Shown here: in pieces, positions 20,810 through 62,543 of the stretch
How the letters are laid out: every line of letters begins with the position of its first letter
Position numbering within the stretch: position 1 is the stretch's first letter
Source: Actinomycetes bacterium
Lineage (GTDB): Bacteria > Auribacterota > JAJCYG01
Assembly: GCA_029263055.1 (NCBI GenBank)
Contig: JAJCYG010000099.1
Location: 64,083-128,082 of the forward strand
Reading direction: 5' to 3'
Length of the DNA stretch: 64,000 nucleotides
Notes under the pieces: model-generated
The model's input: only the letters and a program-made list of their open reading frames with translations
Told to the model about the DNA's origin: nothing
Databases searched by the model: none
Translations under genes and position numbers: made by a program

Positions 20810-23692
20810 CTATAGGGAAGCTTCGACTGCAGAAGTAGGGAATATTTCTGATTCTAAAGGGATGTTTGAAATTAAAAAACGGTCTTGAACTGTTGAGAGG
20901 TATTTGGGAACGGTGGTGCGCCAAAAATAGTCTTCTTCTAAATCCTTAGAAATTTTATCGAGTTGGCCTGAGGCGTCAGCAGAAATGATCTGGTTGATTA
21001 GTTCTAATTGGACCATGCCTCTTTTTAAAAACCGTTTGCTTTCTTTAAAATTACTTTTTTTAGCTAAGGAATAACTCTTTATAATATAGAGCTGAGCTAA
21101 TTGTTCTTTGGTTTTAATTGATAGGTATCGATGTTGTTGCTCAACTTTTTTTCTTCTAAGCCCATATTCTTTAGCTTGTGCCATGATTTCTTCTTGGTCT
21201 TTAAGTTGTAAATAGGCGGCAGCATAATCAACTTCATCTAAAATGTCTTCTTCTTGTTCTTCAAACTCTTTAAGTTCAGCAAGCTTTTGATAAAAACTGA
21301 GTTTATTCAAAACTCTAAAACTTTTAATTGCTGGGTTTAGGTAATAGAGGACTTCATCTGGATTAACCTCTTCTTTGCTTAGAGCATTTAATGCTTCTTT
21401 AAAATTAAAGGTATAGTTGTTGAAGTCCCCTTGTTTATTAAGGGGTAATCGTTGAAAAGAACTAAAGCTTGTTTCAAAAGATTTGGTTTTCTTTTTCCAG
21501 AGTGTTTGTCTAAAAAGATATTCTAAAAGACTTGTGTAAGTTGAGAATGAATTAAGTGAGCGAGGAGAAACCATGACGTTTGTTCTATATGAATAAATAA
21601 AAAGTAGAATAGAAATCTTAACAGTGAGCCATCCATTACTTAATTGTGATCTAGAAAAAGTATAGATTTTATAAACGATAAATGATGCTCCTACAATGAG
21701 TGCGGTAGAGGTGGAAAAGATTAAAATGGGTATAGAAAAAGTGACAAAGAGGAAAGTGAAAATGCCTGCACCACTGCTTATAAGAAAGTCTTTCCATCCT
21801 TTTTCTCTGCGGCTGGCTTTGGTGACTCCAATAGCCGCGATCAGGCCTATTCCTATTAATGAAGGATGGGTGTAGGGCCATAAGTTGTGAGTCCAATCAA
21901 TGAGGTCATATATGAATTTAAAATTCATCATGTTCCCTTCAGCAAGGAAAAGGGGAAAGAGTAGAGGCCATGCCATGGAGTTGAGTCGAACCCCATTAGA
22001 TTTTTTGGTTTTTGTTACAGAAGGTTTTTTCTTAATTTTAGGTTTGGCGCCAAATCGTCCTTTTCTTGGTTTCTTTTTAGGTGAAAGCGGTGCATAAAAA
22101 GAGGCTAGAATTCGGCTCTGTTTGCCTAAAAGTTCAGCAAGTTTGGCTAAGTTAAGATGAAGCACTTTGCCTTCGGTATAAAGAATGTTTTCTCCATTAG
22201 CAGGGAGGTTAAATGTGACAGCCCCTCGTCTATAGTTTGATTCAAAGACGAGATGTGTATCTGAATGAATAAAAATTTCTTCAGTGATGTACGCGCCTGA
22301 AGAAGTGGTTGTTTCAAAAACAATAGGAGTGGGTCCTTTAGAATGAAGGTAGCCAAACGAGATCCCTAAAGTGCGTGTTTTGTCAGAGCCAGGCGTAATA
22401 GCAAGAGCCATTTCATTTTCATGAGTGAGTTTGTTTTGGTTGTTTAGATGAAACAAACTTCCTTTGATGGGTCCATCGTCATATGTGAGCGAAATTTCAT
22501 GGTGTTGAATTTCGTCAGATTCTGTTGATGGGATAAAACGTCGATAAAGAGAATGGGTCCTTCCATTTCGAACGGTTTTCATGTTGGAGAGCATTGTTAG
22601 AAAATGTTTTTTTAAAGCTTCTTTTGCTTGGTAAAATCGCTCTAGCCATTCTATTCTTGTTTTTTCTTCTTCTGATAGTTCTGTTTCTTCAGGTGGTGTG
22701 GCATTGTTGTTTTGATCTTGATCTTGTTCTTTCTTGCTTGCTTGACTGTTTGAAAGCAGAGCTCTTAAATTAAGATTGGCTTTAAAAATTCTTTTAATGA
22801 AAGTGTCATTCACATAGCGTTTGATCAGTATGTCGAGATCTTTTCGATTCATGCCGGTTTTAGCTAAAATTTGTTCGTCTTTAAAAATAGGGTGTAACAT
22901 CAGGTGAATGTGCGCTCCAGTTGGGTTTTTCTCAAATTCTCTTAGCACAAGAGGGAGCATGCGAACTCTAAGGCGATCTGTTCTTACTTGCCATAAGTGA
23001 TTTAAGAAGTAGTGGAGTATTTTATCACGCATTGAAAAAGAAACAATTCCTTCAAACTGACTCACTTCAATTGTGGCGAGAAATTCTTCAAGTGCATCTG
23101 CTGTTTCATCAGAAAGAACTCTTTTTTCTTCATTAATGGTTTCAAGACCATAAGTAACGGTATCAATCCAAAAACTCTTTTTTCTTCCTGGTCCGTTTAA
23201 AACTCTCTTTGTTTGAATTTGAGGAACATGTTTGATTAATAAGTTTAGAGCCTTTTCATGACAGGCTTCATCAGGAGCTGTTTTAAGGACTAAGCCAAAG
23301 GCGCTCGCAAAGTAATAACTATCCAAATGTTCTTCTAAAAAGAATTGAAAGGGGGTGAGCAATCTAAAAAAATCTTCTGAATTTTCCACGACAACTTTAT
23401 CTAATCCTTCTAAAAGAAGGTTTCCATTTCTTCTATTGAGCTCATAATGACTATTGGCTTGTATGGTTAAAAATCTAAAAATCGCTTGAGGAGTTAAGTG
23501 GAGCCTTTGTTTTGTTTTCAACTTTAAAACAAATGGAGGTGAATCTGGTGTTTGAATTGTTTTGGGCACAGCTGTTTTAGGGGCCAAAAATGAGAGATGG
23601 CGCTGAGTTGCTTCAGGCACACCAAAAGTGATCAGCAAGAACAAGCTGATTGCTTTTATCCAAATGTTGAATCGATACTTACTTTTAGACAC
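20810..23692 (-). CDS. Large hypothetical protein (960 aa): signal/TM N-terminus, central cluster of hydrophobic helices, coiled-coil-rich C-terminus
   Basis: Long uninterrupted ORF with coding-like composition; no recognisable catalytic motif; central region (about aa 560-700) holds several closely spaced TM helices. Confidence 0.6.
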   Translation of the reverse strand: MSKSKYRFNIWIKAISLFLLITFGVPEATQRHLSFLAPKTAVPKTIQTPDSPPFVLKLKTKQRLHLTPQAIFRFLTIQANSHYELNRRNGNLLLEGLDKVVVENSEDFFRLLTPFQFFLEEHLDSYYFASAFGLVLKTAPDEACHEKALNLLIKHVPQIQTKRVLNGPGRKKSFWIDTVTYGLETINEEKRVLSDETADALEEFLATIEVSQFEGIVSFSMRDKILHYFLNHLWQVRTDRLRVRMLPLVLREFEKNPTGAHIHLMLHPIFKDEQILAKTGMNRKDLDILIKRYVNDTFIKRIFKANLNLRALLSNSQASKKEQDQDQNNNATPPEETELSEEEKTRIEWLERFYQAKEALKKHFLTMLSNMKTVRNGRTHSLYRRFIPSTESDEIQHHEISLTYDDGPIKGSLFHLNNQNKLTHENEMALAITPGSDKTRTLGISFGYLHSKGPTPIVFETTTSSGAYITEEIFIHSDTHLVFESNYRRGAVTFNLPANGENILYTEGKVLHLNLAKLAELLGKQSRILASFYAPLSPKKKPRKGRFGAKPKIKKKPSVTKTKKSNGVRLNSMAWPLLFPLFLAEGNMMNFKFIYDLIDWTHNLWPYTHPSLIGIGLIAAIGVTKASRREKGWKDFLISSGAGIFTFLFVTFSIPILIFSTSTALIVGASFIVYKIYTFSRSQLSNGWLTVKISILLFIYSYRTNVMVSPRSLNSFSTYTSLLEYLFRQTLWKKKTKSFETSFSSFQRLPLNKQGDFNNYTFNFKEALNALSKEEVNPDEVLYYLNPAIKSFRVLNKLSFYQKLAELKEFEEQEEDILDEVDYAAAYLQLKDQEEIMAQAKEYGLRRKKVEQQHRYLSIKTKEQLAQLYIIKSYSLAKKSNFKESKRFLKRGMVQLELINQIISADASGQLDKISKDLEEDYFWRTTVPKYLSTVQDRFLISNIPLESEIFPTSAVEASL

Positions 23693-34037: not shown

Positions 34038-35810
34038 TTAGAGGCTCTGTTCTAGTCTAAATTGCTCGAATCGACCCCAAACTTCGGGTTGAGTGAGTAA
34101 GGTTTTTGAGTCAAGTTCTTGAAGGTGAAGTCTTAGAGCTTGATCTTGAGTGACCCAGTTTAGGTCTTTTGTTCTTAAAAGTGTTTCAACCTTTTTTGCT
34201 GTGAGCTGACTTGGTTTTAAGACCAGTCCTTTAGTTGCGTTTTGAGCATCTGTTTTGGCTAAGCCAGCTAAACCAGAACTTGGTTTGCGATTCCAGCCAG
34301 AAACACGCAAGGGGACTGAATCTTTATTTGAAGAGGGAATTTTAAAAGGGTCTTCTACCTCTGTAATAGGTTGGCCCCATTTTGTTGGGACACCTAGCTC
34401 TGGATCAACTAAGCTTCCAATAGAATAGATGAAGTAGTCTGTTGCGATAGAGGCGCTGTCAGTTTGTTCAGGTTTGATGCGAGCTGAGTTAGAGTCGTAT
34501 GTGAGCTTGTTACGGGCTAATCGAGTCTCTTTTAAATTTATTCCTGCTTCGTCTGAAAGAAATTCAATCGGTTGGGTTAAAAATTGAAATGAAAGTTTTA
34601 AATTGTTTTTGTCAAATTCAAACGTATTGGCTAAAACTTTATTGTAAGTTGAAACTGAAAGCATTCTTTTGAGAACGGTTTCAATATCTTGGTCCATCTC
34701 TCCTGTGAGCGGAAACTCAACTTGTGTGAAATAAGGAAACGACGCACCACTTTTATTTAGTTTTGCTTCTTCTAAGTAAATGGTTTCTAAGACTCTTCTA
34801 ATTTCTCCTCGAAGTTGGTCTATTTCGATAAAGGAGAGAACCTCTTTTGCTTCATTAGGGTTCATTTTGAATTCAAACGGTCCTCGTCGAGCAAAGACAG
34901 AAACGTCTGTTGTTTTAGATTCAAATAAGAGCGGTTTTGATTTGACCGTCCTATTTTCTTGATTGAATTCAATAAAACCAAGGTAATGTAATAAGCGGAG
35001 TGTAAAATCAAATTGGGTGACAAATTTTTTAAATTGATCTTTAGGACTGAGTTCTTTAATAGCACTTTTTAATTGATCAATAAAAACCTCATCCTGTTCT
35101 GAGTTTAAAGAATCAAATGCTTGGGCAAATCGGTTGATAAAAGCGAGCCAGACAATCATGTCTGCAGTCACATTTCCAACACCCAGTATGCCGATATGTC
35201 CGCTTAGTTTTAATTCACTGAGTTCATAGCCGGGAGCAATATTGTATTGTTGGGCAATTTGGTAGGCGTCATAAATTTTTCCTAATTCAATTCCTGGTAT
35301 GTTTGGAGTGTTGCTGGTGCGGGAGCCTGCTGCTAAATAAATGAGGCTCGGTTTAAGCTGGGCAAGTTCATCTAAAGTAATATCTCCGTTTGCACCTACT
35401 TTAATGCCTCCGTAATAGCCTTCAAAGTGTTCGTTGCTTAAGGTGCTGGCAAAACGTTTTAACATTCCTGATTTGAGTTTGATTTTATCGGGTCGAATGA
35501 GAAAGCGGGTTCCGCCTCCAATGGGCCCATCTTCATTGAGCATTAAGACTCTGTTGCCTTGTTTGATGAGCGCTTCAGCGGCATAAAAGCCAGAGGCGCC
35601 TCCTCCGACAATGATGACGAGAGGGGGTTGGAGCTTAGTTGAGGGAGAAAGTGCCTGAGAGTTTAGCCTGTTTATAGGGTTAGGGCTTAATGCCATATAG
35701 AGTGAAAGAAAGAGCATCAGACTCAAATAAAACAAACGGCAGAGCAACATATTAAGACCTATTTTAAAGTGATTTTCTTCACAAATGTTTACCAAAAAAC
35801 CGGTCTCCAA
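34038..35810 (-). CDS. FprA/adrenodoxin-reductase family oxidoreductase, paralog 2, with N-terminal membrane anchor
   Basis: 590 aa; hydrophobic N-terminus (LLCRLFYLSLMLFLSLYMAL) then IIVGGGASGFYAAEAL, GGGTRFLIRPDK, HIGILGVGNVTADMIVWL, VFARRGPFEFKM, FQFLTQPIEF; clear paralog of the downstream gene. Confidence 0.65.
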   Translation of the reverse strand: METGFLVNICEENHFKIGLNMLLCRLFYLSLMLFLSLYMALSPNPINRLNSQALSPSTKLQPPLVIIVGGGASGFYAAEALIKQGNRVLMLNEDGPIGGGTRFLIRPDKIKLKSGMLKRFASTLSNEHFEGYYGGIKVGANGDITLDELAQLKPSLIYLAAGSRTSNTPNIPGIELGKIYDAYQIAQQYNIAPGYELSELKLSGHIGILGVGNVTADMIVWLAFINRFAQAFDSLNSEQDEVFIDQLKSAIKELSPKDQFKKFVTQFDFTLRLLHYLGFIEFNQENRTVKSKPLLFESKTTDVSVFARRGPFEFKMNPNEAKEVLSFIEIDQLRGEIRRVLETIYLEEAKLNKSGASFPYFTQVEFPLTGEMDQDIETVLKRMLSVSTYNKVLANTFEFDKNNLKLSFQFLTQPIEFLSDEAGINLKETRLARNKLTYDSNSARIKPEQTDSASIATDYFIYSIGSLVDPELGVPTKWGQPITEVEDPFKIPSSNKDSVPLRVSGWNRKPSSGLAGLAKTDAQNATKGLVLKPSQLTAKKVETLLRTKDLNWVTQDQALRLHLQELDSKTLLTQPEVWGRFEQFRLEQSL

Positions 35811-36909: not shown

Positions 36910-38568
36910 ATGAAACAAAACAGCTTTGTTTTTCTTCTTTTTATTTTGTTAACAGCCATCATGACTTTTCCTTTGGTCAAGACAATGTCTGTTTTTATGG
37001 ATACCACTGGAGATCCTTTTTTTAATGCATGGACCTTAGCTTGGACTCAGCATCAGCTCTTAACAGATCCGCTTCATTTGTTTGATGCTAATATTTTTTA
37101 TCCTTATAAATTGACTTTGGCTTTTTCAGAGCATCAAGTGGCTTCAGCTTTGTTGGCTCTGCCTGTTTATCTTTTAGGAGGAAGTCCTATCCTCGTTCAC
37201 AATGTGGTTTTTTTCTTAACATTTGTTCTTTCTGGTTTTGGACTTTATCTTTTAGTTAAAGATCTAACAGGAAATTCTCTTGCTGCAATTTTAGCTGGAA
37301 TGGCGTTTGCGTTTAGTTCTTACCGTTTTTCTCAATTAGCACACCTCCAGATTTTAGCATTTCAATGGATGCCATTTGCTTTAGTCTATTTGCATCGAGC
37401 ACTCAACCAACCTCAGTGGAAAAACTTTTTGCTTATGGGGCTGTTTGTTTTTCTTGTTTTAATGTCTTCTAATTACTTAGGTCTTATTTTTCTTATTTTT
37501 ATCAGCTTTTTTCTTCTTATTGTGGTTCCAAAAAAATGGTTTGAAGAAAAGGGGAGAGGGTTGAGACGTTGTTTTTTTACGTTGCTTGCTGTTGGAATTT
37601 TATTTCTTCCTTTTGCTTTGCCATATGTGAAAGTGAAAGAGGAATATGGTTTTTCTCGAGAATTAATTGATATGAAGCAGTACAGTGCTCGGGCTGAAAA
37701 CTATTTAGGTGTGAGCACTAATCACAAGTTCTATCCTAATAAATTAAAGAAAATGGGCAAGCCTGAAAGCAGACTCTTTTTTGGTTTTCTTGTGATGGGG
37801 ATGGCGTTTTTAGGTTTGTTGTTAGCTAAGAACATTTCTTTACGTATTCGTTTAGGCTATGGTGTTGTTTTATTGCTCTCATTTTTACTCTCAATGGGAG
37901 GAGGGGCAAAACTTTTTGGAATCAACTTAAATGGTTGGCCATACCAATTCTTTTATTCCTATGTGCCTGGCTTTGATGGAATGCGTGTGCCAGCCCGATT
38001 TGCGATTAATGTCGGTCTTTGCTTGGCTGTGCTAGCTGGATTTGGATTTGCTCTTGTGTTTCAAAAAATAAAGGGAAAACTTCTTTCTTGTTGTTTGGTC
38101 TTTCTTTTAAGCGCCGGGATTTTAGCTGAAGCATGGGCTGCTCCTTTAAGATATATTCACTTTGCTTTCAAAGCGCCTCCTGTTCACCCTTGGTTGGGGC
38201 ATCAAGATGATGTTGATGGGGTTGTTTTTTTACCTGCTTATATTAATAACTCAGTCCATTTAGAGATGAATTATATTTTTTGGTCTAATCTTCATTGGAA
38301 AAAAATAATGAATGGCTATAGTGGGTTTTTTCCTGCTGAGTGGAATGAATTTAAGTTAAAGCTTCGAGAATTTCCAACTAAAGAAACGGTTGATCATCTG
38401 CGTCGAGTAGGGGTAAACTATGTGGTGATTAACAAACACAAATATCCGCAAGATATGCTGAATAGAATGGAAAAGCGGATCAAGCGTTTTTCAAACGAAT
38501 TAGAACAGATTAAGAATTGGGGCGGTCAAACGGTTTATCGCCTTAAAATGAAAGGGATTGAAAATTGA
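36910..38568 (+). CDS. Polytopic membrane protein, putative GT-C-fold glycosyltransferase-like protein
   Basis: 552 aa, more than 10 predicted TM helices; N-terminal region with conserved acidic residues (DTTGDPFFNAW...) as in lipid-linked glycosyl/aminoarabinose transferases; overlaps the start of the downstream epimerase gene (TTGA). Confidence 0.55.
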   Translation: MKQNSFVFLLFILLTAIMTFPLVKTMSVFMDTTGDPFFNAWTLAWTQHQLLTDPLHLFDANIFYPYKLTLAFSEHQVASALLALPVYLLGGSPILVHNVVFFLTFVLSGFGLYLLVKDLTGNSLAAILAGMAFAFSSYRFSQLAHLQILAFQWMPFALVYLHRALNQPQWKNFLLMGLFVFLVLMSSNYLGLIFLIFISFFLLIVVPKKWFEEKGRGLRRCFFTLLAVGILFLPFALPYVKVKEEYGFSRELIDMKQYSARAENYLGVSTNHKFYPNKLKKMGKPESRLFFGFLVMGMAFLGLLLAKNISLRIRLGYGVVLLLSFLLSMGGGAKLFGINLNGWPYQFFYSYVPGFDGMRVPARFAINVGLCLAVLAGFGFALVFQKIKGKLLSCCLVFLLSAGILAEAWAAPLRYIHFAFKAPPVHPWLGHQDDVDGVVFLPAYINNSVHLEMNYIFWSNLHWKKIMNGYSGFFPAEWNEFKLKLREFPTKETVDHLRRVGVNYVVINKHKYPQDMLNRMEKRIKRFSNELEQIKNWGGQTVYRLKMKGIEN

Positions 38569-40232: not shown

Positions 40233-41054
40233 TTGAGGCCTCTTATGTTAAAACGACATGTTGTTCTTTTTAGCTTGATCGTTTTTTCTTTTGCTTCTTC
40301 TTCCTTAGCAGAAACCAATCTCTATCAAGTTTTCTCTCTTGATGATCAATTTGTAGTCTATTCAGAAGATCCAAAACTGGCCCAAGAAGGGGCTGCCATT
40401 GCTGAAGAGACCCGTAACCTTTTGTTTAAAGAACTTGGCTGGATGAACTACAGCCAGTATCCGACTCAAGTCTGGTTTGAAAAGGGGAGAGCAGACATTG
40501 AATTTGCAGTCCAACGACGTCAAGCAAGCTGGCTCAAAAAAGTAACCCTTCCTGTTGAAGAAAATTTGAATCAAGTGGGTTTGCCTCGTGAAGTGATTCG
40601 TTTGGCTCTTTTTGAATTTGCTCTTAGTGGCGAGTCTCAAGTCAAAATAAAGCCTCAAGAATTTCCTTTATGGCTTGTAGAGGGGTTGAGACTAAAAATA
40701 AGCCGAACTTTGAATAAGGGGAAGGCAACCACTCTATTTATGAATGTTGAAGAACTTTTCTCGCAAGAAGAGCAGTTTTCTAACTCTGTGGAACAAGAGC
40801 AATTCGCACGCCTCTCTAAAGAGTTTCTTACCTTTCTTCAGAACTTGCCAAATGGCCAAAAGAAGCTAAAAGAATATCTTCAAGCAATGAATTCTGCTCA
40901 AAGTCGTTCAGAAACTTTTTTCAAAGTCTATTCAGAAACTTTTCCAGACTTTCAACAATTACAATTTGCCTGGAATATTTCCTCACCTGACGAACCTAAA
41001 CAAGAGCGCCAAGAAGTGATTTTAAAGTATCTTGATGCCTTAGATGTGGAGTAA
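40233..41054 (+). CDS. Secreted hypothetical protein (273 aa)
   Basis: Signal peptide VVLFSLIVFSFASSSLA; no recognisable domain. Confidence 0.55.
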   Translation: MRPLMLKRHVVLFSLIVFSFASSSLAETNLYQVFSLDDQFVVYSEDPKLAQEGAAIAEETRNLLFKELGWMNYSQYPTQVWFEKGRADIEFAVQRRQASWLKKVTLPVEENLNQVGLPREVIRLALFEFALSGESQVKIKPQEFPLWLVEGLRLKISRTLNKGKATTLFMNVEELFSQEEQFSNSVEQEQFARLSKEFLTFLQNLPNGQKKLKEYLQAMNSAQSRSETFFKVYSETFPDFQQLQFAWNISSPDEPKQERQEVILKYLDALDVE

Positions 41055-41057
41055 GTC

Positions 41058-41909
41058 TTATTTTCCCCAATCGCGGGCGTAGCGAAAGTCTCGGCCGATT
41101 GTTCGCAAGGAGAGTTTGGCGATGAGTGGGAGGCGGCGTTTGTATTGGGAGAGTTGGACTTTTCGTTGGATTTGGTCAATCCGTTCTGCTTCAAAGCCTA
41201 GTTCAATCAGTTCTTCCCGTGTTTGGCGTTCATCAACCAAATGGTAGAGAATCAAATCAGCTTCATCATAGGTAAAGCCTAATTCTTGTTCATCGCTTTG
41301 GCCTAACCATAAGTCGGCTGAAGGGGGTTTGTCTAAAATCGATGCAGGCACTTTTAAATGCTGAGAGAGTTGGCGTACTTGTCCTTTGTACAAATCTCCA
41401 ATAGGATTAATGGCTGAAGCCATATCACCGAATTGAGTTCCATATCCCAGTAAGAGTTCGGTTTTGTTGCTTGTGCCTAATACGAGTGCATTTTCTTTGG
41501 CTGAATAGTCATAGAGAATGGTCATTCGTTCTCGAGCCATTTTGTTTCCACGGCGTAGGGATGAGGCACGAGGAAAATGTTTGAAGTAAGCATTGATCAT
41601 GGGTGTGATCTCAAGGACAAAAGATTGCATTCCTGTTTTGTCTATGACTTGTTTGGCATCTGAAATAGATTCTTTGCTGCTTGTGGCATAAGGCATCAGA
41701 ATGCCTGTCACATTTTTAGGGCCTAAAGCTTTTGCGGCTAAAACAGCCACAAGCGCAGAGTCAATTCCGCCAGAGAGACCCAGAACCACTTTTGAAAAAC
41801 CAACTTTAGTCACTTCTTCACGGATGAAGTCGACTAAAATCTGTTCGACATATTTGGCATCAATAGTCAGCAGGTCAGAAAGGTTTTTTAAATTGTTCGT
41901 TTTGGACAC
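41058..41909 (-). CDS. nadE: NAD+ synthetase, synthetase (PP-loop ATPase) domain; probably the C-terminal half of a frameshifted glutamine-dependent NadE
   Basis: 283 aa; PP-loop [17 protein letters not shown]; GTG-started ORF overlaps the upstream C-N hydrolase ORF by 35 nt in the +1 frame; the overlap contains an A6 run. Confidence 0.75.
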
Positions 41910-42735
41910 GTTGAAGTTCTCTTAATGTGAGTTCAAATTTTTCATCTCGGAGCAATGGGTTTTGCGTGCGTATTCGAGTTAAGCTGTTGAGCGAAAGTGT
42001 GGCTGTGATCAAGTCTGTTTTATTTTCTTTGGCTTTAGCTAAAACTTTGCCTGTAGGATCTATAATTTCTGAACCACCCCAAAAGTGAACCCCATCTTCA
42101 AATCCAACCCGATTCACATAAAGTACAAACACGGTATAAAATTGAGCATAGAAACGGTTGAGTTGTTCCCATGTTTGGCTTGATTGGAGTTTGCCCTCTT
42201 TGCTAAGGCCTCGGCCAGGACTGCTCGAAGGAACAATTAAAAAGCTCGCTTTATCTAGAACAGCCGTATAAGGAAGCATAGGGTGCCACATATCTTCGCA
42301 AATTAAGACTGAAGAGCGGCCAAACTGAGTGTCAAAGGCGCGCATTCGGTCGCCTTGAGCCAAGTAACGTTGTTCGTCAAACAAACCGTAAGTTGGAAGG
42401 TATATTTTTCTGTGGATGTGCTTGAGTTTGCCTTTTTCAAAATAAGCTGTTGAGTTATAGAGGTGGGCATCATTACCTTGTTCGACAAAGCCAAATGCAA
42501 TTGAAATCTTTTTACTTTCACGTGCTAAGCGCTGGATTATTTTATCTTTTAAGGTAAGCGCCACATCTGTGACTTGATCTCTTAAAAAATAACCGGTTAA
42601 ACTTAATTCAGGAAAAAGAATTAACTGGGCTTTCTTTTTTTGTGCCGCAGCGATTTGTTCTAAGTGAATATCTAAGTTTTTATTTAGATTGCCTAGAGTT
42701 GGCTTGATTTGAGCGAGAGCTACATTTAACTTCAT
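41875..42735 (-). CDS. Carbon-nitrogen hydrolase (nitrilase superfamily) domain; glutaminase half of glutamine-dependent NAD+ synthetase
   Basis: 286 aa; C-N hydrolase catalytic triad context ([26 protein letters not shown]); directly followed by the synthetase domain ORF. Confidence 0.75.
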
Positions 42736-43352
42736 TAGTTTTTTCCTAGCTGTTTTAAATATTCAGTCGCTTCTTTATTCCACTTAGTGGAGTCTTTTGT
42801 TTTGCGATATTGCTCAAAATATTTTTTAGCTTTCTTTTTTTGACCTAGTTCAAAGTGAACTTTGCCTAATTGGTACATGGCATCCCAATCGTCTTTATCT
42901 GATTTCAGCGCTTTTTCAAAATCAACCCGTGCAGACTTTAGTTCGCCATTTAAAAAGAAGATTCGCCCTGAAGCATAAAAGTCTTCAGCTTCTTCCTCTT
43001 CTTCGATTGTCTCAAAGGCTTTAGTTTCTTCTTCAATATCTTTTTTAGCTGTAATTTCTGTTTTCTTTTTCTTTTTTTCTTTAACCGGTTCTTCCTCAAC
43101 TTAAGGCAGGGGTTGATTTGAGGCCAAGTCCATATAATCTAAATAGTTGTAGACCCAAATCAATCCAGCTAAGACTTCGCACAAAACCCCAATAGGGAGG
43201 CCGAGCGGATGATCGAGTAAAAAGAAGAGCCCCCCCACCAACATACAGTCCCAAAACGCAAGCGTGAGGGTCCAGCCACGCACCTTCTTGTCATAAAGAA
43301 GCTGCCCATACCCAGGAAACAAAGCCGGATGTTTTCTCAGAAATGCTTTCAT
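42735..43352 (-). pseudogene. Membrane-anchored TPR-repeat protein interrupted by an in-frame TAA (43101-43103); could be a pseudogene, programmed readthrough or a sequencing error
   Basis: ORF 43101..43352 (83 aa, two TM helices) continues in the same frame after the TAA: VEEEPVKEKKKK...AEDFYASGRIFFLNGELKSARVDFEKALKSDKDDWDAMYQLGKVHFELGQKKKAKKYFEQY... (two TPR motifs) ending at TAA 42735-42737, which overlaps the ATG of the C-N hydrolase gene (TAATG); the downstream part has no in-frame start codon until 47 aa from its end. Confidence 0.5.
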
Positions 43353-53777: not shown

Positions 53778-56063
53778 TTAAGAAGTTCTTTTCCAATTAA
53801 ATAAGTGTTTTCCACTCCAATACCACCGTTGTTTGTTTTTATCCCGTTTAATTGAAAAGAGAACAAAGGAAGAAGTTTTTTCTTTAACAAATGAGATTTT
53901 ATTTTTTGTTAATTGTTCTTCAACATCCTTTGCTGTTTCATTAGGAACAACTAAAAGAGTTGGCTTTGAAAATGTTAGAACTCTATTTTTAAGGACCTCA
54001 TTATTAATTGGAGCTTGCCAGATATTGACCACATCTAAATGCCTTTGATTTTCTGATAGATGAGCTGAGAGCCAAACTGTTGAGTAAATTTTATGATTTG
54101 AATAGTTGTTTAATTTTTTGCTGAGGTGATCAATCTCTTCTTTTTTAAGTGTTTGTAAAGGAGTCTTGGTTTGGCGGTACAAGCAAATTTCTGCAAAGGC
54201 CCAGTAGTGGGGGTGCTGGCGATTTGGTTTAGTGAGTTCTACTTTGATAAAACGAACGGGTTTTCCATTGAGTGCGATTTCTTTGCGATCGTGCACGCCA
54301 TGATCAAAAGGGTGAGCTCCATCCCAGAAAAACCCCCATAAAGGGGCTATGCTGGGTGTTTCTTTCCAAGACTTTCCGTTGAGAGAGGTGCTAACTTTAA
54401 TTTCTTCTGCCACGCCATTAAGTGCGTTTCCAATATAGAGTTCCATCTTATTGATAGGTTCAGGGCGTGAAAGTTCTATGGTAAAACTCATTCCTTCAAC
54501 TTGTTTGGTTTTTGTCATCCAGACAGAACGTAAATTGTGATCTGCGGCTAAAGAAGTCTCGAGATTATTATCTGAAGCGTTTAATTTCCAGCTTGCAGGA
54601 TCAATTAAAATAGAAGCATTTCCTTTTTTGTTGAATGAAGAATAAAAATCAAAAGGGGCCGCATTAAATTTTTCATAATCAATATTTAAAGCTTGAAACG
54701 AGTCTTCTAACTTTTTATTGTGGCCAACTGTTAAAAAAGCAGGATTCCATAATGCATCGGTTTTTCGAGTATAAAGAGGGTAACGATCTAAAAAAGGATG
54801 TGGAAAGACTATTGTTTCACCCATATCAAATGTGGCAACAGGGCCAAGCCAATAAGTGTAGGTGTAAGCTCCGTAGACTTGTTTCTCTAAAAGAGTCTGT
54901 TTTGTTTTTTTCTTGGTGGCCATGTCTTCGCGAAAGCGTTTGATCCGTTCTGTATGAACAAAGGGGTGGCTTAATGAGTTATCTTGAAAAAAGATAATGA
55001 GCAGCAAACCAACAAAACCATATCCTAGCCAATGGCTTTTTTCTTTTAACGTTTGAAAGGCGCGTGCTAAAAATATCGGTAACACCGAATAGAGAGGGAG
55101 TAAATGACGTTGTGTGTTTTCTCCACCGTAAAAGCTGGCACTTTGTAGGTAAATAATGATCAGCAGAAAGGCAAATGGGAGCCAAAGTTCTTTTGGGTGT
55201 TTGCGTGTGAGAAGCCAGATTGCTGTAAAAATAAAAATAAGTATACTGAAAACCTTCCAAAACTCGGGTGTGCGGTCACGAATGCCTAAAACAAACATTA
55301 GTTTCCATTTAAAGAAACTAATCACATTGCTCCATAGATTGACTTCGCTATTTTTAAAAAAGATAGTGATAGAAGCAAAGTCATGTGTGAAGTTGTAAAT
55401 CCAAAAAGGAAGGCTTCCAATAAAGAACATGCCTAAAAGTAGAAAAAATTCTTTTTTGAAAAATATTTTTTTATCATGCCAAAGTAAAAACAGGCCGCAT
55501 GTAGCAAAGTAATAGAGACATAAGAAATTTGTCCACCATGCTAATCCTGCAATCAAACCAAACCAGAGAAAATATTTTTTTCTTTGGTTGAAAGTCGGTG
55601 TGCCAAAAACAATTTTAGCTGTCAGTAGCATTAGTAAACTTCCAAAAATCATGGTCTCTAAATACCCGTGTCGAGCCCATGCCCCATGTAAGACTAAAAA
55701 GTAAGGTCCAAAAGCTGTGAGCAGTGCAGCAACTAAGGCGCTTCCTTTGTTTTTTAAAAATTCATTGGCCAGTAAGTATGTGACGAAGATAAAGACTAAA
55801 GAGAGAAGTAGTGGAACGCTGTTTAAGGTGTAGCGATTAAGGCCAAACAGAGCAAATGGAATGGCATCGAGATAAGATTGTAGGGTACCCATATAATGGT
55901 AGCCCCATTGAAAAACAGGGAATTCACCTTGAAGTACATGCCAGCCCGCTAAACCAAAGATAGCTTGATCCGCGTCCATATGGGGTGCAAGCAAATAGCC
56001 TAATCGATAAATGGCTGCACCGATTAGAATCAAAGCTAAAGAAAGTGTTGTTTTACTTTTCAT
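53778..56063 (-). CDS. GT-C-fold membrane glycosyltransferase (ArnT/PMT-like) with C-terminal extracytoplasmic F5/8-type-C (discoidin-like) domain
   Basis: 761 aa; about 12 N-terminal TM helices with ArnT/PMT-like first loop (APHMDADQAIFGLAGWHVL); C-terminal 150 aa (SVWMTKTKQVEGMSFTIELSRPEPINKMELYIGN...WAFAEICLY) resembles a discoidin domain. Confidence 0.65.
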   Translation of the reverse strand: MKSKTTLSLALILIGAAIYRLGYLLAPHMDADQAIFGLAGWHVLQGEFPVFQWGYHYMGTLQSYLDAIPFALFGLNRYTLNSVPLLLSLVFIFVTYLLANEFLKNKGSALVAALLTAFGPYFLVLHGAWARHGYLETMIFGSLLMLLTAKIVFGTPTFNQRKKYFLWFGLIAGLAWWTNFLCLYYFATCGLFLLWHDKKIFFKKEFFLLLGMFFIGSLPFWIYNFTHDFASITIFFKNSEVNLWSNVISFFKWKLMFVLGIRDRTPEFWKVFSILIFIFTAIWLLTRKHPKELWLPFAFLLIIIYLQSASFYGGENTQRHLLPLYSVLPIFLARAFQTLKEKSHWLGYGFVGLLLIIFFQDNSLSHPFVHTERIKRFREDMATKKKTKQTLLEKQVYGAYTYTYWLGPVATFDMGETIVFPHPFLDRYPLYTRKTDALWNPAFLTVGHNKKLEDSFQALNIDYEKFNAAPFDFYSSFNKKGNASILIDPASWKLNASDNNLETSLAADHNLRSVWMTKTKQVEGMSFTIELSRPEPINKMELYIGNALNGVAEEIKVSTSLNGKSWKETPSIAPLWGFFWDGAHPFDHGVHDRKEIALNGKPVRFIKVELTKPNRQHPHYWAFAEICLYRQTKTPLQTLKKEEIDHLSKKLNNYSNHKIYSTVWLSAHLSENQRHLDVVNIWQAPINNEVLKNRVLTFSKPTLLVVPNETAKDVEEQLTKNKISFVKEKTSSFVLFSIKRDKNKQRWYWSGKHLFNWKRTS

Positions 56064-59052: not shown

Positions 59053-60132
59053 ATGAGTAGCATGTTTGGGCAATTATTCAGAGTTTCGACGTTTGGGGAG
59101 TCTCATGGCGGCGCTGTTGGCGTGGTGGTGGATGGCTGTCCTCCAATGTTAGCTATTTCTGAAAAAGAGGTCCAAAAGGAGCTGAATCGGCGTAAACCTG
59201 GGCAGAGCCGAATTACCACAGCCCGAAACGAAGCTGATCAAGTCCAAATCCTTTCTGGAGTCTTTCAAGGCAAAACCCTTGGAACCCCTATTTTAATGCT
59301 CGTGGGAAACACCGATGCCCGTTCTCAAGATTATAAGCAGATGCAAGATCTGTTTCGTCCCTCTCATGCTGATTTTACTTATCAAATGAAGTATGGCATT
59401 CGTAACTGGCAAGGGGGAGGTCGTTCTTCTGCACGTGAAACCATTGGTCGTGTGGCAGCAGGGGCTATTGCGAAAAAGCTTTTAAAAGAGCGTTATAAAA
59501 CAGAAATTTTAGCTTATGTGAAACAAGTTCATGATTTGTATGCTGAAGTCGATTCCAATAAAGTTCAATTAAAAGATATTGAGAAAAATATTGTTCGTTG
59601 TCCAGATGCTAAAGTGGCTAAAGAGATGATTGCGTTAATTGACCAGGTTCGCAAACAAGGCGATTCACTTGGGGGTGTCGTTGAAGCAGTGGCTCGTAAC
59701 GTTCCTATTGGTTGGGGGGAGCCTGTGTTTGATAAGCTCGAAGCTGATTTAGCTAAAGCCATGATGTCGCTTCCTGCTTCTAAAGGTTTTGAAATTGGAA
59801 GTGGTTTCTCTTCAATCATGATGACCGGTTCCGAGCATAATGATCCTTTTACACTTAAAGGAAACAAAGTTAAAACCAAATCAAATTTTTCCGGTGGCGT
59901 GCAAGGTGGCATTTCTAATGGAGAAAATATTGTGATTCGTACTGCGTTTAAACCAACTGCAACAATTATGAAATCCCAAGAAACAGTTTCCGTAAAAGGG
60001 AAAAAAGCAATCCTTAAAGCTAAAGGGCGTCACGATCCATGTGTGCTGCCTCGTGCTGTTCCTATGGTGGAGTCGATGATTGCTTTAGTCTTAGCGGATC
60101 ACGCTTTGCGCCATGAAGCACAGTGTCGCTAA
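59053..60132 (+). CDS. aroC: Chorismate synthase
   Basis: 359 aa; [28 protein letters not shown] and [25 protein letters not shown] motifs. Confidence 0.9.
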
Positions 60133-62543
60133 AGAGCAGATTCGATTGGTTCTGTAGAAGCTAATGCTAAAATCTCCTTTTCATTATCAAAACTAAATAA
60201 ACTTCTTAGTTCATCCATTTGTTGCTGAACTCTTTTCTTTCTTTCTTCAAATGTACCACTTCTAACTTTGTGTAAAAAAATCGGTGTTATTTCAGGAAAA
60301 TGGTAAACCAATATTTCAATTAAAGGAATGATCTCTTTAAATTCTTCCCGGTTATTTAAGATTTGTGATCTGACAATGGATTGAACCATCGCTATTTTTT
60401 CTTTGGGTTCTTTGATGAAGCCTTCTTCTCTTAAAACTTCTAGATCAGGAAGTTCTTTTAATAACTCTTGTGTATGAGCCTCTGAAAAAAAGAGTTTAAG
60501 TTGACTTCCTTTAGGATAAGTCACGTATGAAATGACTTGAGCTAAAAATTCTTCAATATTAGAGGTGCCCGGGATGGTTTTGTTATCAACAAATAAACTT
60601 TTTCTTTGAATAAGAAACCGGTTGTTGAGTTTGTTGAATAATTCACCAAGGGTTTGAATTGAAAAGAGTAAGTCTTCAAATGAAATCGTTTTTTCTCTTA
60701 GTCTGCTTCCTTGATAGTAAGATTTTATTTTCATTTGGACGTGTGAGTGGATGACTGCTTCATGGTGGATAACACCTAAAACAAAATCCCCAAAAGAGTC
60801 GACAAAAGCATTTTCTAATGTTTGGTTTGAGAGGGCTTGAGATAGAATTTTCCAAATCTTAAGTAAATGATCTTTGCTGATTCGAATCAAACCATTTTGA
60901 TTGGCTCCTAAAGGTTCGGCTAAAGAGTGTCGGGCAGTTTCTGTCATTCTAGAAGAGCTACCTCTTAAATTTTCTATGGCTTCACGGATGACTTCTTTAT
61001 CTAGAGAAGAAAATTGACTGATTGCTTCAGTTGCATTGTAAAAATTAACTTTCCCTTTAGCTAAAATCATTTCATTGGTTGCTTCAGCTGAAGGACCTAG
61101 TTGGGGTGTGATGAACTGTCCTCGTTGACGTAAGACTAAAATAACACCACCGTGCGTGCCAGAAACACCGGTTGCTGTATTGGCTGCAGTAGTGCCTACT
61201 CCTTGCCTACTCTGTATCGAAAGGATTTCTCCATTTACAATTTGTTGAACGGCTTCCGGAGTAAATGTGGTGCCGAGATTGGCATTGTCATGAGTTGCTT
61301 GAGAGAGTGCATTGGCAAAGCGAACTGTTTGAGCGCTATCAAGACCGCTATTTGCTGTCCCTAAAGTAAACGCAATGCCAGATGGATTTTGTGTGCCGAG
61401 TTGCTGTTTGATGCTATTGGGTTGAGTGGGATCAAGTGCTCTTACAAAATTTAGCTGGCCATTGCCGCTTGTATTTCCAAGAGTCATAACAGTACTGGTT
61501 TGCATGTCTGCGGCATAACCGGTGTCTAATGTTTGGTAATTACCGTTAGCCACTCCATTTGAATTACGTCCTTGGTTGAATCGTCCTTGAGTGTCATTCC
61601 ACAAGCTTTCAATAAATAAACGAAGATTAATGGCCGCTGTTCTGTACTGAGTGGCTTTTGTTGAATTTGTTGTGATGTTAGTAAACTCATTTAAAAAGGA
61701 AAATGCGGCAATATTTTCTTCTCCTGAAAGAGCTAACTGAGCACTGTTTTCAACAGCTTGTCCTGGAAATGTAGGGCGAGAGACGAGCGTGGTTAAAAGG
61801 TAGTCTGCAATGTTTTCTCCCATTGGAACAAATTGTCTGTCTCCAGTTTTGAGTGTGTAGAGGTTGATCGCCAATCCTGTAAAGGCAATAGCTCCTGTTT
61901 CTTTTTCTGTGAGGTCTTGAGTTGAGTTTGTTAAATGAAAACAAGCTGTAAAAGAGCCATCGGCATTTTGATTGGAGTGAAGAGTGCTTAAAATAGTTTG
62001 AGCCGTTTGTTGATAATTATTATTTGGAGCTTTGCTCTCAGCAACTAAGAGCGCCATAACAGCCATGGCTTGATTGTAAACGTGAGCAAATGAATTTGTA
62101 TTGGCTTCAAAACTTTTAACCAGTCCAACCAGGTTTGTGCGAGGCGTTCCGCTCGATTGAATGAGCTGCGTGGCGCGTTGGATTTGAAGCGTTAGCCAGT
62201 CTGCATGTTCTTGAATGCTTAAGTTTGGAGTTGGTAGTGTGGGTGCTTGTGTTGAAGGAGTGCGGCGTTTCTCAGAGCTACAGCCAATAATAGGGGCAAA
62301 TACAATGACTCCTAAAAGAGATCCGATTCCTGCAACCACAAGACGGCGATGCCGAAAAAAACGTTCTTCATTGGTTTCAGCTTTTATTTTGGGAGGTCCC
62401 CTAAAGATGGAGGGGCTTATGCTTGTTGAAATGATCTGTGATGGAACCGCTAAGTATTCTAGATCAGTATTGTGCTTGATTGGAGTGGATAGACTCAAGC
62501 AGAGGCAAACAAAAGCTGATAAAAACTTGAGCAGAAAAGACAT
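60129..62543 (-). CDS. Large secreted/lipoprotein-like hypothetical protein (804 aa)
   Basis: N-terminal signal peptide, then a hydrophobic segment ending in IIGCSS (possible lipobox); Asn/Gln/Thr-rich central part; helical C-terminus; no catalytic motif recognised. Confidence 0.6.

What the first reader, a model, noticed from the sequence alone, without database searches (positions are those of the whole stretch)
41870..41915. Glutamine-dependent NAD+ synthetase split into two overlapping ORFs at an A6 homopolymer
A C-N hydrolase domain ORF (41875..42735) and an NAD-synthetase PP-loop ORF (41058..41909, GTG start) overlap by 35 nt, offset by +1. In fused NadE enzymes these are one polypeptide of about 560 aa. 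The overlap contains the minus-strand run TTTAAAAAACC. Removing one A reads ...[17 protein letters not shown]..., continuous into the synthetase frame. This looks like a sequencing/assembly indel, an authentic frameshift (inactivating, or compensated by ribosomal slippage), or a genuinely split two-subunit enzyme.
Basis: partly seen in the sequence, partly recalled or inferred. Interest (0 to 1): 0.55.

Follow-up and report, generated by a model that had tools for sequence, protein, structure and literature searches.

The report
Two-subunit NAD synthetase, overlapping genes
The "broken" NAD synthetase is not broken: it is an ordinary, already described two-gene form of the enzyme, a glutaminase subunit gene followed by a synthetase subunit gene, and the short overlap between them is conserved in distant relatives.

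Summary
On the minus strand, a 286-aa CN-hydrolase ORF (41875..42735) and a 283-aa NAD-synthase ORF (41058..41909, GTG start) overlap by 35 nt. The second ORF is in the +1 frame, and an A6 run lies at 41884..41889. The indel/frameshift reading is not supported.

- **Same layout in relatives.** Relatives at 80, 75, 70, 55 and 43 % identity have the same G-then-S layout, with +1-frame overlaps of 29, 29, 29, 26 and 20 nt.
- **Own start sites.** In those relatives the synthetase has its own ATG. One has AAGGAGG upstream of it.
- **The A-run is not an indel site.** One relative has A5 in the same frames and two have no A-run.
- **No indels.** The G+S unit is exactly 1678 nt in four genomes that are 68-76 % identical in DNA. 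Each gene shows third-codon-position variation in its own frame.
- **No fused homologues nearby.** The 120 best homologues of each half are all single-domain proteins.
- **Wrong profile for a fusion.** The synthetase passes the single-domain NadE profile. A virtual one-A-deleted fusion fails the fused-NadE cut-off.
- **Subunit signature present.** The synthetase carries the C-terminal loop that marks glutaminase-partnered subunits.

This is a clustered ("type C") two-subunit glutamine-utilising NAD synthetase, as characterised in Thermus thermophilus. Interest is low.

The only local peculiarity is that the relatives' ATG is lost here and a GTG two codons upstream replaces it. The gene just upstream carries an in-frame TAA that relatives lack.

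The parts
41875..42735 (-). G-subunit gene: stand-alone nitrilase-type glutaminase of NAD synthetase, 286 aa, ATG start, TGA stop at 41875..41877.
   Evidence: PF00795 at 2.7e-47. The best NCBIfam match is the N-terminal half of fused NAD+ synthase PRK13981, profile positions 4-247. The best PDB match is the glutaminase domain of glutamine-dependent NadE 5kha. The Glu-Lys-Cys triad motifs are present: FPE43LSLTGY, HRK110IYLP, LIC146EDMW. The nine nearest relatives (55-80 % identity) are all exactly 286 aa.
41058..41909 (-). S-subunit gene: single-domain NAD synthetase (NadE), 283 aa if started at GTG 41907..41909, TAA stop at 41058..41060.
   Evidence: PF02540 at 2.3e-85. NCBIfam single-domain equivalog PRK13980 scores 352.7 bits against a cut-off of 255, with profile position 5 at residue 12. 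The P-loop S46GGIDS is present. The C-terminal tail [15 protein letters not shown] aligns to the C-terminal loop of fused enzymes 3n05 and 5kha and is conserved across the subfamily. All 120 best homologues are 272-296 aa single-domain proteins.
41875..41909 (-). 35-nt dual-coding overlap. It encodes the last 11 codons plus the stop of G ([11 protein letters not shown]) and the first 11 codons of S ([11 protein letters not shown]).
   Evidence: Relatives have the same +1-frame overlap of 29, 29, 29, 26 and 20 nt. The G+S unit is 1678 nt in all four close relatives with no indel. There is no stable RNA structure across the junction: MFE -6.3 kcal/mol, z = +1.15.
41884..41889 (-). A6 run. It forms Lys-Lys (AAA AAA) in the G frame and part of Leu-Lys-Asn (TTA AAA AAC) in the S frame. 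It is ordinary coding sequence, not a frame-break site.
   Evidence: It is A6 in L002 and L004, A5 (CCAAAAACC) in L006 with unchanged frames, and absent in L008 and L011. The window has 251 A/T runs of 6 or more.
41907..41909 (-). Inferred GTG start codon of the S-subunit. It is the only canonical start in the open S frame upstream of the conserved domain.
   Evidence: The S frame opens after a TAA four codons upstream. The relatives' ATG, two codons downstream, is AAA here (CATGAAG changed to CAAAACG). The start is inferred and no protein data exist.
41917..41923 (-). Weak Shine-Dalgarno-like AAGAGAA, 7 nt upstream of the GTG, inside the G coding sequence.
   Evidence: Duplex with a generic anti-SD is -2.9 kcal/mol. 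This is within the range of most genes in the window, many of which have no SD. The equivalent position in L008 is AAGGAGG and in L011 ACGAGGA.
42735..43352 (-). Co-oriented upstream gene (two predicted TM segments plus a TPR domain). Its stop overlaps the G start (TAATG). It is probably the first gene of the same operon, and here it is interrupted by an in-frame TAA at 43101..43103.
   Evidence: The TM/TPR-G-S order is conserved in L002, L004, L006 and L007, where this gene is one ORF of 180-192 aa.

Best explanation
These are two intact genes of a clustered ('type C') two-subunit, glutamine-utilising NAD+ synthetase. The upstream gene encodes a stand-alone nitrilase-fold glutaminase (G-subunit). 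By analogy, it hydrolyses glutamine to supply ammonia. The downstream gene encodes a single-domain NadE (S-subunit). It adenylates nicotinic acid adenine dinucleotide (NaAD) and amidates it to NAD+.

The S gene starts inside the last 35 nt of the G gene, in the +1 frame, from its own start codon. Here that is GTG 41909; relatives use an ATG two codons further on.

- **Shown here:** the domain identities, the conserved stop of G, the independent start of S in relatives, the absence of indels, and purifying selection in each gene's own frame.
- **Inferred:** that ribosomes translating the end of G keep the unstructured, A-rich initiation region of S open, so the two subunits are made in coupled amounts.
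- **Inferred from the Thermus thermophilus enzyme:** that G and S form a 1:1 complex that channels ammonia.
For: 1. Relatives at 80, 75, 70, 55 and 43 % G identity (L002, L004, L006, L008, L011) all have G (283-286 aa) followed by S (273-281 aa). The overlaps are in the +1 frame and measure 29, 29, 29, 26 and 20 nt. NC10 and Tectomicrobia relatives (about 52 %) have a 4-nt overlap.
2. S starts at ATG in all of these. L008 has AAGGAGG 7 nt upstream and L011 has ACGAGGA.
3. The A-run is A5 in L006 with the same frames, and is absent in L008 and L011.
4. The G+S unit is exactly 1678 nt in the window, L002, L004 and L006, although the DNA is only 68-76 % identical. The fraction of columns invariant in all four is 0.19 at codon position 3 against 0.72-0.73 at positions 1 and 2, in each gene's own frame.
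5. The 120 best homologues of G are 283-373 aa with PF00795 only. The 120 best homologues of S are 272-296 aa. None is fused.
6. S passes the single-domain NadE equivalog PRK13980 (352.7 against 255). The virtual one-A-deleted fusion scores 374.4 against fused-NadE PRK13981, below its cut-off of 479.
7. G is closest to the glutaminase domain of fused NadE and has the E-K-C motifs.
8. S has the extended C-terminal loop that De Ingeniis et al. 2012 give as the signature of G-partnered S-subunits.
9. The two-subunit enzyme is experimentally established for T. thermophilus TTC1538/TTC1539. Clustered pairs are listed there for Thermus, Meiothermus, Geobacter, Alicyclobacillus and Denitrovibrio (PMC3376133).
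Against: - No reads were available. The only other assembly with this junction (L001, a Logan contig of SRR15505515) is 100 % identical over 4962 nt, so it is the same strain and not independent.
- The window has lost the ATG used by its relatives. Its GTG start has only a weak SD-like AAGAGAA (-2.9 kcal/mol), so the S start is assigned by elimination.
- Complex formation, glutamine use and translational coupling are inferred and were not tested.
- The Thermus enzyme itself still preferred ammonia about 50-fold in vitro.
Confidence: 0.9

Rival explanations
1. A sequencing or assembly indel at the A6 homopolymer has split what is really a fused ~558-aa NadE.
For: Deleting one A gives a continuous 558-aa ORF. 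Homopolymers are typical error sites. No reads could be inspected, and the second assembly (L001) is the same strain.
Against: The same frame change is present in independent genomes and metagenomes at 43-80 % identity. These include one with A5 and two with no A-run. The stop of G is conserved at 286 aa in nine relatives. No fused protein appears among the 120 best homologues of either half. The virtual fusion fails the fused-NadE cut-off, 374 against 479.
Confidence: 0.01
2. An authentic frameshift mutation has inactivated a fused gene, making it a pseudogene.
For: Two adjacent out-of-frame ORFs are the classical look of a frameshifted gene.
Against: Both ORFs are full length with intact catalytic motifs. 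Both are under codon-position-specific purifying selection in their own frames, and there are no indels over 1678 nt in four diverged genomes. The arrangement is ancestral to a broad clade.
Confidence: 0.01
3. Programmed +1 ribosomal frameshifting, or transcriptional slippage on the A-run, makes a fused G-S polypeptide, perhaps alongside the separate subunits.
For: The overlap is always in the +1 frame in the close clade. The motif AAAAAACCTTTCTGA/TAA is conserved in the window and L002, and nearly so in L004 and L006.
Against: That conservation is what dual coding predicts. The motif is absent in L008 and L011, which keep the overlap and have a strong SD plus ATG. A6 is short for slippage. 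The sequence UUC-UGA is not a known +1 shift site (own knowledge of prfB-type sites). The junction has no stimulatory structure (z = +1.15). An independent start codon is kept by selection, including an ATG-to-GTG turnover in the window.
Confidence: 0.03
4. The CN-hydrolase is an unrelated amidase (for example N-carbamoylputrescine amidase or a Nit-type enzyme) that merely sits next to an ammonia-dependent NadE.
For: The second-best NCBIfam hit is aguB at 108.7 bits. No model's full-length cut-off is reached by G. NCBI names relatives only as 'nitrilase-related carbon-nitrogen hydrolase'.
Against: The best profile and best PDB hits are the glutaminase domain of fused NadE. The G-S adjacency, with overlapping or abutting genes, is conserved across several phyla. 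The S partner carries the C-terminal loop used for G contact in fused enzymes.
Confidence: 0.05

Closest known systems
Two-subunit ('type C', clustered) NAD synthetase of Thermus thermophilus HB27, TTC1538 (S) / TTC1539 (G). De Ingeniis et al. 2012, PLoS One 7:e39115 (PMC3376133).
   Same: It has a separate single-domain NadE gene and a separate nitrilase-type glutaminase gene, adjacent in one operon. The S-subunit belongs to the single-domain NadE branches and carries the extended C-terminal loop. G is most similar to the G-domain of fused enzymes.
   Different: The genes here overlap by 35 nt out of frame, and S starts at GTG. The host is an uncultured lineage with no close named relative; the nearest named TopA hits are 50-54 % identical. 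No biochemical data exist for this pair. Direct sequence comparison with TTC1538/1539 was not possible with the tools.
Fused ('type F') glutamine-dependent NAD+ synthetase, NadE-Gln (NCBIfam PRK13981 / PRK02628; PDB 5kha, 4f4h, 3n05).
   Same: It has the same two catalytic modules in the same order, glutaminase first and synthetase second. It has the same catalytic motifs and a homologous C-terminal loop on the synthetase.
   Different: Here there are two polypeptides. The junction carries about 36 extra G residues after the last position that matches the fused profile, plus about 22 S residues before its first matching position. The fused profile has only about 23 positions between the two matched blocks. 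The virtual fusion scores 374 bits against a cut-off of 479. The S half is much closer to single-domain NadE: 1xng at 9e-61 against 5kha at 2e-38.
Single-component ammonia-dependent NadE ('type N'; e.g. Helicobacter pylori 1xng, Campylobacter jejuni 3p52, Pyrococcus horikoshii 2e18; NCBIfam PRK13980).
   Same: These are the closest solved structures and the best profile for the S half. The length is about the same and the protein is single-domain.
   Different: The S half here has a dedicated G partner gene. It also has a C-terminal [15 protein letters not shown] tail that aligns with fused enzymes beyond the point where the alignments to 1xng, 3p52 and 2e18 stop, at residues 262-265.

Membership tests
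Two-subunit clustered (type C) glutamine-utilising NAD synthetase | A separate gene for a single-domain NAD synthetase (S-subunit) with the PP-loop ATP-pyrophosphatase motif. | tested here: met
   PF02540 at 2.3e-85. PRK13980 scores 352.7 bits against a cut-off of 255. SGGIDS lies at residues 46-51.
Two-subunit clustered (type C) glutamine-utilising NAD synthetase | A separate gene for a nitrilase-fold protein that is closest to the G-domain of fused NadE and has the Glu-Lys-Cys triad. | tested here: met
   The best NCBIfam hit is PRK13981 positions 4-247 (7.7e-46). The best PDB hit is the 5kha glutaminase domain (3.1e-32). The E43, K110 and C146 motifs are present by sequence inspection.
Two-subunit clustered (type C) glutamine-utilising NAD synthetase | The G and S genes are adjacent on the chromosome in one transcription unit, and the adjacency is conserved. 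| tested here: met
   The overlap is 35 nt here. G-S adjacency holds in L002, L004, L006, L008, L011, L012, L014 and L016. Co-transcription itself is inferred.
Two-subunit clustered (type C) glutamine-utilising NAD synthetase | An extended C-terminal loop on the S-subunit, given as the signature that separates partnered from single-component NadE in branches IV/V. | tested here: met
   The tail ...[19 protein letters not shown] aligns to the C-terminal loop of fused 3n05 and 5kha up to residues 276-278. Alignments to the single-component structures end at 262-265. The tail is conserved in 13 of 13 subfamily members. The criterion comes from PMC3376133.
Two-subunit clustered (type C) glutamine-utilising NAD synthetase | Presence of the alpha-9 and alpha-18 contact helices on the S-subunit. 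| not tested
   No structure model was made. According to the paper these helices are also present in single-component members of branches IV/V, so they would not discriminate.
Two-subunit clustered (type C) glutamine-utilising NAD synthetase | G and S form a stable complex with glutamine-dependent NAD synthetase activity. | not testable with these tools
   This is known only for T. thermophilus TTC1538/1539. It needs co-expression, pull-down and enzyme assays.
Fused (type F) glutamine-dependent NadE | Both domains lie on one polypeptide. | tested here: not met
   A stop follows residue 286 of G. It is conserved in relatives down to 43 % identity, and S has its own start.
Fused (type F) glutamine-dependent NadE | The full-length score reaches the equivalog cut-off of PRK13981 (479 bits) or PRK02628 (473 bits). 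| tested here: not met
   The virtual one-A-deleted fusion scores 374.4 and 129.3 bits respectively.
Programmed frameshift / transcriptional-slippage gene | A shift-prone motif conserved at the frame junction in relatives. | tested here: not met
   The run is A6 in three sequences (the window, L002 and L004), A5 in L006, and absent in L008 and L011, while the +1 overlap persists.
Programmed frameshift / transcriptional-slippage gene | The downstream frame lacks an initiation site of its own. | tested here: not met
   Five relatives have an ATG, and L008 also has AAGGAGG. The window has a GTG.
Programmed frameshift / transcriptional-slippage gene | A stimulatory RNA structure at the site. | tested here: not met
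   The 111-nt junction folds at -6.3 kcal/mol, weaker than shuffles (z = +1.15; 181 of 200 shuffles fold at least as well).

The most novel reading that the evidence does not exclude
The unusually long out-of-frame overlap kept in this clade (20-35 nt, against 4 nt in NC10 and Tectomicrobia relatives) could be more than a by-product of an N-terminal extension of S. It could be a regulatory device. One possibility is obligatory translational coupling that fixes G:S stoichiometry. Another is a low rate of +1 shifting near AAA-AAA-CCU-UUC-UGA that gives a minor fused G-S isoform next to the separate subunits. The evidence does not exclude a minor fused product.
Probability: 0.03. Interest if true: 0.45.

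Novelty: new member of a known kind. Interest (0 to 1): 0.1.

Why it matters
It matters mainly for annotation. This locus should be called as two intact genes, an NAD synthetase glutaminase subunit and an NAD synthetase, and not as a frameshifted or pseudogenised fused nadE. The homopolymer should not be 'corrected'.

It also shows that the two-subunit form described from a handful of genomes in 2012 is widespread in uncultured lineages. G-S pairs were found here in NC10, Tectomicrobia, Eiseniibacteriota and the window's own clade. The G-S junction also evolves, through overlap length and start-codon turnover, while the split is preserved. None of this would surprise a specialist.

Tried and rejected
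- **Exact look-up of the G protein** found no contig.
- **Exact look-up of S** found one Logan contig. It proved 100 % identical to the window over 4962 nt, so it cannot serve as independent support for A6.
One of them, an Anaerolineae MAG, has no adjacent nadE.
- **Cluster look-ups** gave almost no organism names.
- **A TopA search to name the organism** gave only 50-54 % hits to Verrucomicrobiae, Chlamydiota, Planctomycetes, Ca. Aureabacteria and Ca. Theseobacter MAGs, so the taxon stays unresolved.
- **Rfam** found nothing in the window.
- **The promoter/terminator scan** was not above shuffles (9 against 5.9 ± 2.5, and 6 against 4.3 ± 2.0) and adds nothing firm.
- **Nucleotide conservation in the overlap** was not clearly higher than in the gene bodies (0.62 against 0.55 invariant columns over only 29 nt). 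It was therefore not used as evidence.
- **A prfB-like +1 site at UUC-UGA** was considered and rejected, because the motif is not conserved and does not allow re-pairing.
- **Structure prediction** was not run, because single-chain models would not test the subunit contact.

Full report
**1. The observation**

- An ATG-initiated ORF at 42735..41875 encodes 286 aa and ends ...[14 protein letters not shown].
- A GTG-initiated ORF at 41909..41058 encodes 283 aa and begins [20 protein letters not shown].
- They overlap by 35 nt, and the second ORF is in the +1 frame relative to the first.
- The run TTTAAAAAACC lies in the overlap, with A6 at 41884..41889.
- Deleting one A gives a continuous 558-aa product.
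- Pfam assigns the first ORF to CN_hydrolase (2.7e-47) and the second to NAD_synthase (2.3e-85).
- The A-run is not special. The 40 % GC window holds 251 A/T runs of 6 or more.

**2. What the two halves are**

The synthetase half passes NCBI's equivalog model for the single-domain, 267-position NAD+ synthase PRK13980.
- It scores 352.7 bits against a cut-off of 255.
- The match starts at profile position 5, which falls at residue 12. The protein's N-terminus therefore sits where a stand-alone NadE begins.
- Its best solved relatives are single-domain NadE: 1xng (9e-61), 3p52 and 2e18. Fused enzymes come later: 3n05 and 5kha (about 1e-38).

The hydrolase half is most similar to the N-terminal glutaminase half of fused NadE.
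- Its best NCBIfam match is PRK13981 positions 4-247, and its best PDB match is 5kha.
- It has the Glu43, Lys110 and Cys146 motifs of the nitrilase triad. The synthetase has the SGGIDS P-loop.

A virtual fusion made by removing one A scores 374.4 bits against PRK13981, below that model's cut-off of 479. Even when 'repaired', this is not a typical fused NadE.

**3. Relatives: the decisive evidence**

The 120 best database homologues of the hydrolase half are all stand-alone proteins of 283-373 aa with PF00795 only. The nine nearest (55-80 % identity) are all exactly 286 aa. The 120 best homologues of the synthetase half are all 272-296 aa.

I fetched the contigs that encode several of these relatives and worked out the junctions.

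| Locus | G identity | G length (aa) | S start | Overlap |
|---|---|---|---|---|
| L002 | 80 % | 286 | ATG | 29 nt, +1 frame |
| L004 | 75 % | 286 | ATG | 29 nt, +1 frame |
| L006 | 70 % | 286 | ATG | 29 nt, +1 frame |
| L008 | 55 % | 286 | ATG, with AAGGAGG 7 nt upstream | 26 nt, +1 frame |
| L011 | 43 % | 283 | ATG, after ACGAGGA | 20 nt, +1 frame |
| L014 (NC10) and L016 (Tectomicrobia) | about 52 % | 294 and 283 | gene-caller start, codon not read | 4 nt |
| L012 (Eiseniibacteriota) | 42 % | 301 | GTG or ATG | 4 nt overlap (GTG), or a 4-nt spacer (ATG) |
| L010 (Anaerolineae MAG) | 51 % | 286 | no adjacent nadE | none |

The junction alignment bears directly on the homopolymer.
- L002 and L004 have A6.
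- L006 has A5 (CCAAAAACC) by substitution, with both frames unchanged.
- L008 and L011 have no A-run at all.

The whole G+S unit is exactly 1678 nt in the window, L002, L004 and L006, although their DNA is only 68-76 % identical. The fraction of columns invariant in all four is 0.19 at third codon positions and 0.72-0.73 at first and second positions, for each gene in its own frame. Both reading frames have therefore been kept by purifying selection, without any indel, over a long time. That is incompatible with an assembly error, a recent frameshift or a pseudogene.

**4. The start of the synthetase gene in this window**

The S frame opens only four codons upstream of GTG 41909. That GTG is the only canonical start before the conserved domain. 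The ATG that the three closest relatives use two codons downstream is AAA here (CATGAAG changed to CAAAACG), and the relatives lack the GTG (CGAGTT against CGTGTC). This looks like a start-codon turnover that preserves an independent initiation site.

The upstream AAGAGAA is a weak Shine-Dalgarno (-2.9 kcal/mol). Many genes in this window have no better one.

The junction RNA is less structured than shuffled controls (z = +1.15). That suits initiation in an open, A-rich region. It also gives no stimulatory element for frameshifting.

The start assignment and any translational coupling are inferences.

**5. Comparison with what is known**

De Ingeniis et al. 2012 (PMC3376133) classified NAD synthetases as fused (F), clustered two-gene (C), remote two-gene (R) or without glutaminase (N).
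- They showed that the clustered pair TTC1538/TTC1539 of Thermus thermophilus forms a tight complex of about 1:1.
- That complex uses glutamine, whereas the S-subunit alone uses only ammonia.
- Their Table S3 lists adjacent pairs in Thermus, Meiothermus, several Geobacter, Alicyclobacillus and Denitrovibrio.
- They place most type C and R enzymes in the single-domain branches IV and V.
- They name an extended C-terminal loop as the feature that separates partnered S-subunits from single-component ones there.

The window's S-subunit fits that description.
- It ends ...[29 protein letters not shown].
- This tail aligns with the C-terminal loop of fused 3n05 and 5kha up to residues 276-278.
- Alignments to the single-component structures stop at 262-265.
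- The tail is conserved in all 13 subfamily members aligned.

The locus therefore meets every sequence-level criterion of the type C family. Complex formation and glutamine use remain untested here.

One point of caution about the paper: its text calls the S-domain N-terminal. The profile coordinates obtained here place the glutaminase N-terminal in fused enzymes, which matches the G-then-S gene order at this locus.

**6. Rivals**
- **Assembly indel or pseudogene:** excluded by the evidence in section 3.
- **Programmed +1 frameshifting or slippage:** the motif is not conserved where the overlap is, the downstream gene has its own start, and there is no structure. A minor fused product cannot be formally excluded (about 3 %).
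- **An unrelated amidase next to NadE:** this is unlikely, given the best-hit relationship to NadE glutaminase domains, the adjacency conserved across phyla, and the contact loop on S (about 5 %).

**7. Context**

The organism is an uncultured bacterium. The nearest named topoisomerase I hits are only 50-54 % identical and come from Verrucomicrobiae, Chlamydiota, Planctomycetes, Ca. Aureabacteria and Ca. Theseobacter MAGs.

The order HtrA-like protease, TM/TPR protein, G, S is conserved in the close relatives.

The gene directly upstream of G carries an in-frame TAA that relatives lack, and it, unlike nadE, is the gene here that looks interrupted.

**8. Verdict**

The frameshift/indel interpretation is rejected and the 'genuinely split enzyme' alternative is accepted. 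This is a new member of a known kind, of low interest beyond correct annotation.

Noticed in passing
window 43101..43103 (minus strand), within 42735..43352: The gene immediately upstream of the G-subunit (two predicted TM segments plus a TPR domain) is a single 180-192-aa ORF in L002, L004, L006 and L007. In the window it carries an in-frame TAA after ...ASNQPLP. The stop lies at the start of a K/E-rich linker that is about 30 aa longer than in relatives. The next canonical in-frame start (ATG 42878) lies inside the TPR part. This could be a nonsense mutation, a sequencing error, a real split or read-through.
   Followed up: partly
window 41901..41909 (minus strand): Start-codon turnover in the synthetase gene. 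The ATG used by the three closest relatives is AAA here, and a GTG absent from those relatives lies two codons upstream. The N-terminus is two residues longer, 283 against 281 aa.
   Followed up: yes
window 41052..41060: The synthetase gene (minus strand, stop 41058..41060) and a convergent 273-aa gene of unknown family (plus strand 40233..41054) end 3 nt apart. That leaves no intergenic room for terminators. The only terminator-like hairpin on the minus strand downstream (40903..40878) lies inside the convergent gene.
   Followed up: no
window 20810..23692, 53778..56063, 60129..62543, 34038..35810, 36910..38568: Five large ORFs (960, 761, 804, 590 and 552 aa) have no NCBIfam match at E <= 1e-10. 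This fits a poorly characterised lineage whose nearest named TopA relatives are only 50-54 % identical.
   Followed up: no
L010 2501..3361 (Anaerolineae MAG JAVVFG010000006.1): A 286-aa G-subunit homologue (51 % identity) is not followed by nadE; a different gene follows its stop. This is a possible 'remote' (type R) arrangement or an orphan glutaminase.
   Followed up: no
S-subunit subfamily, alignment A2: NadE proteins annotated as 'NH(3)-dependent NAD(+) synthetase' in Fusobacteria (Cetobacterium, Propionigenium, Haliovirga) are 65-66 % identical to the window's S-subunit. They share the C-terminal RTI(G/D)R(D/E)F.Y.RDW tail that marks glutaminase-partnered subunits. Their 'ammonia-dependent' annotation may be wrong if a G-subunit exists in those genomes.
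   Followed up: no
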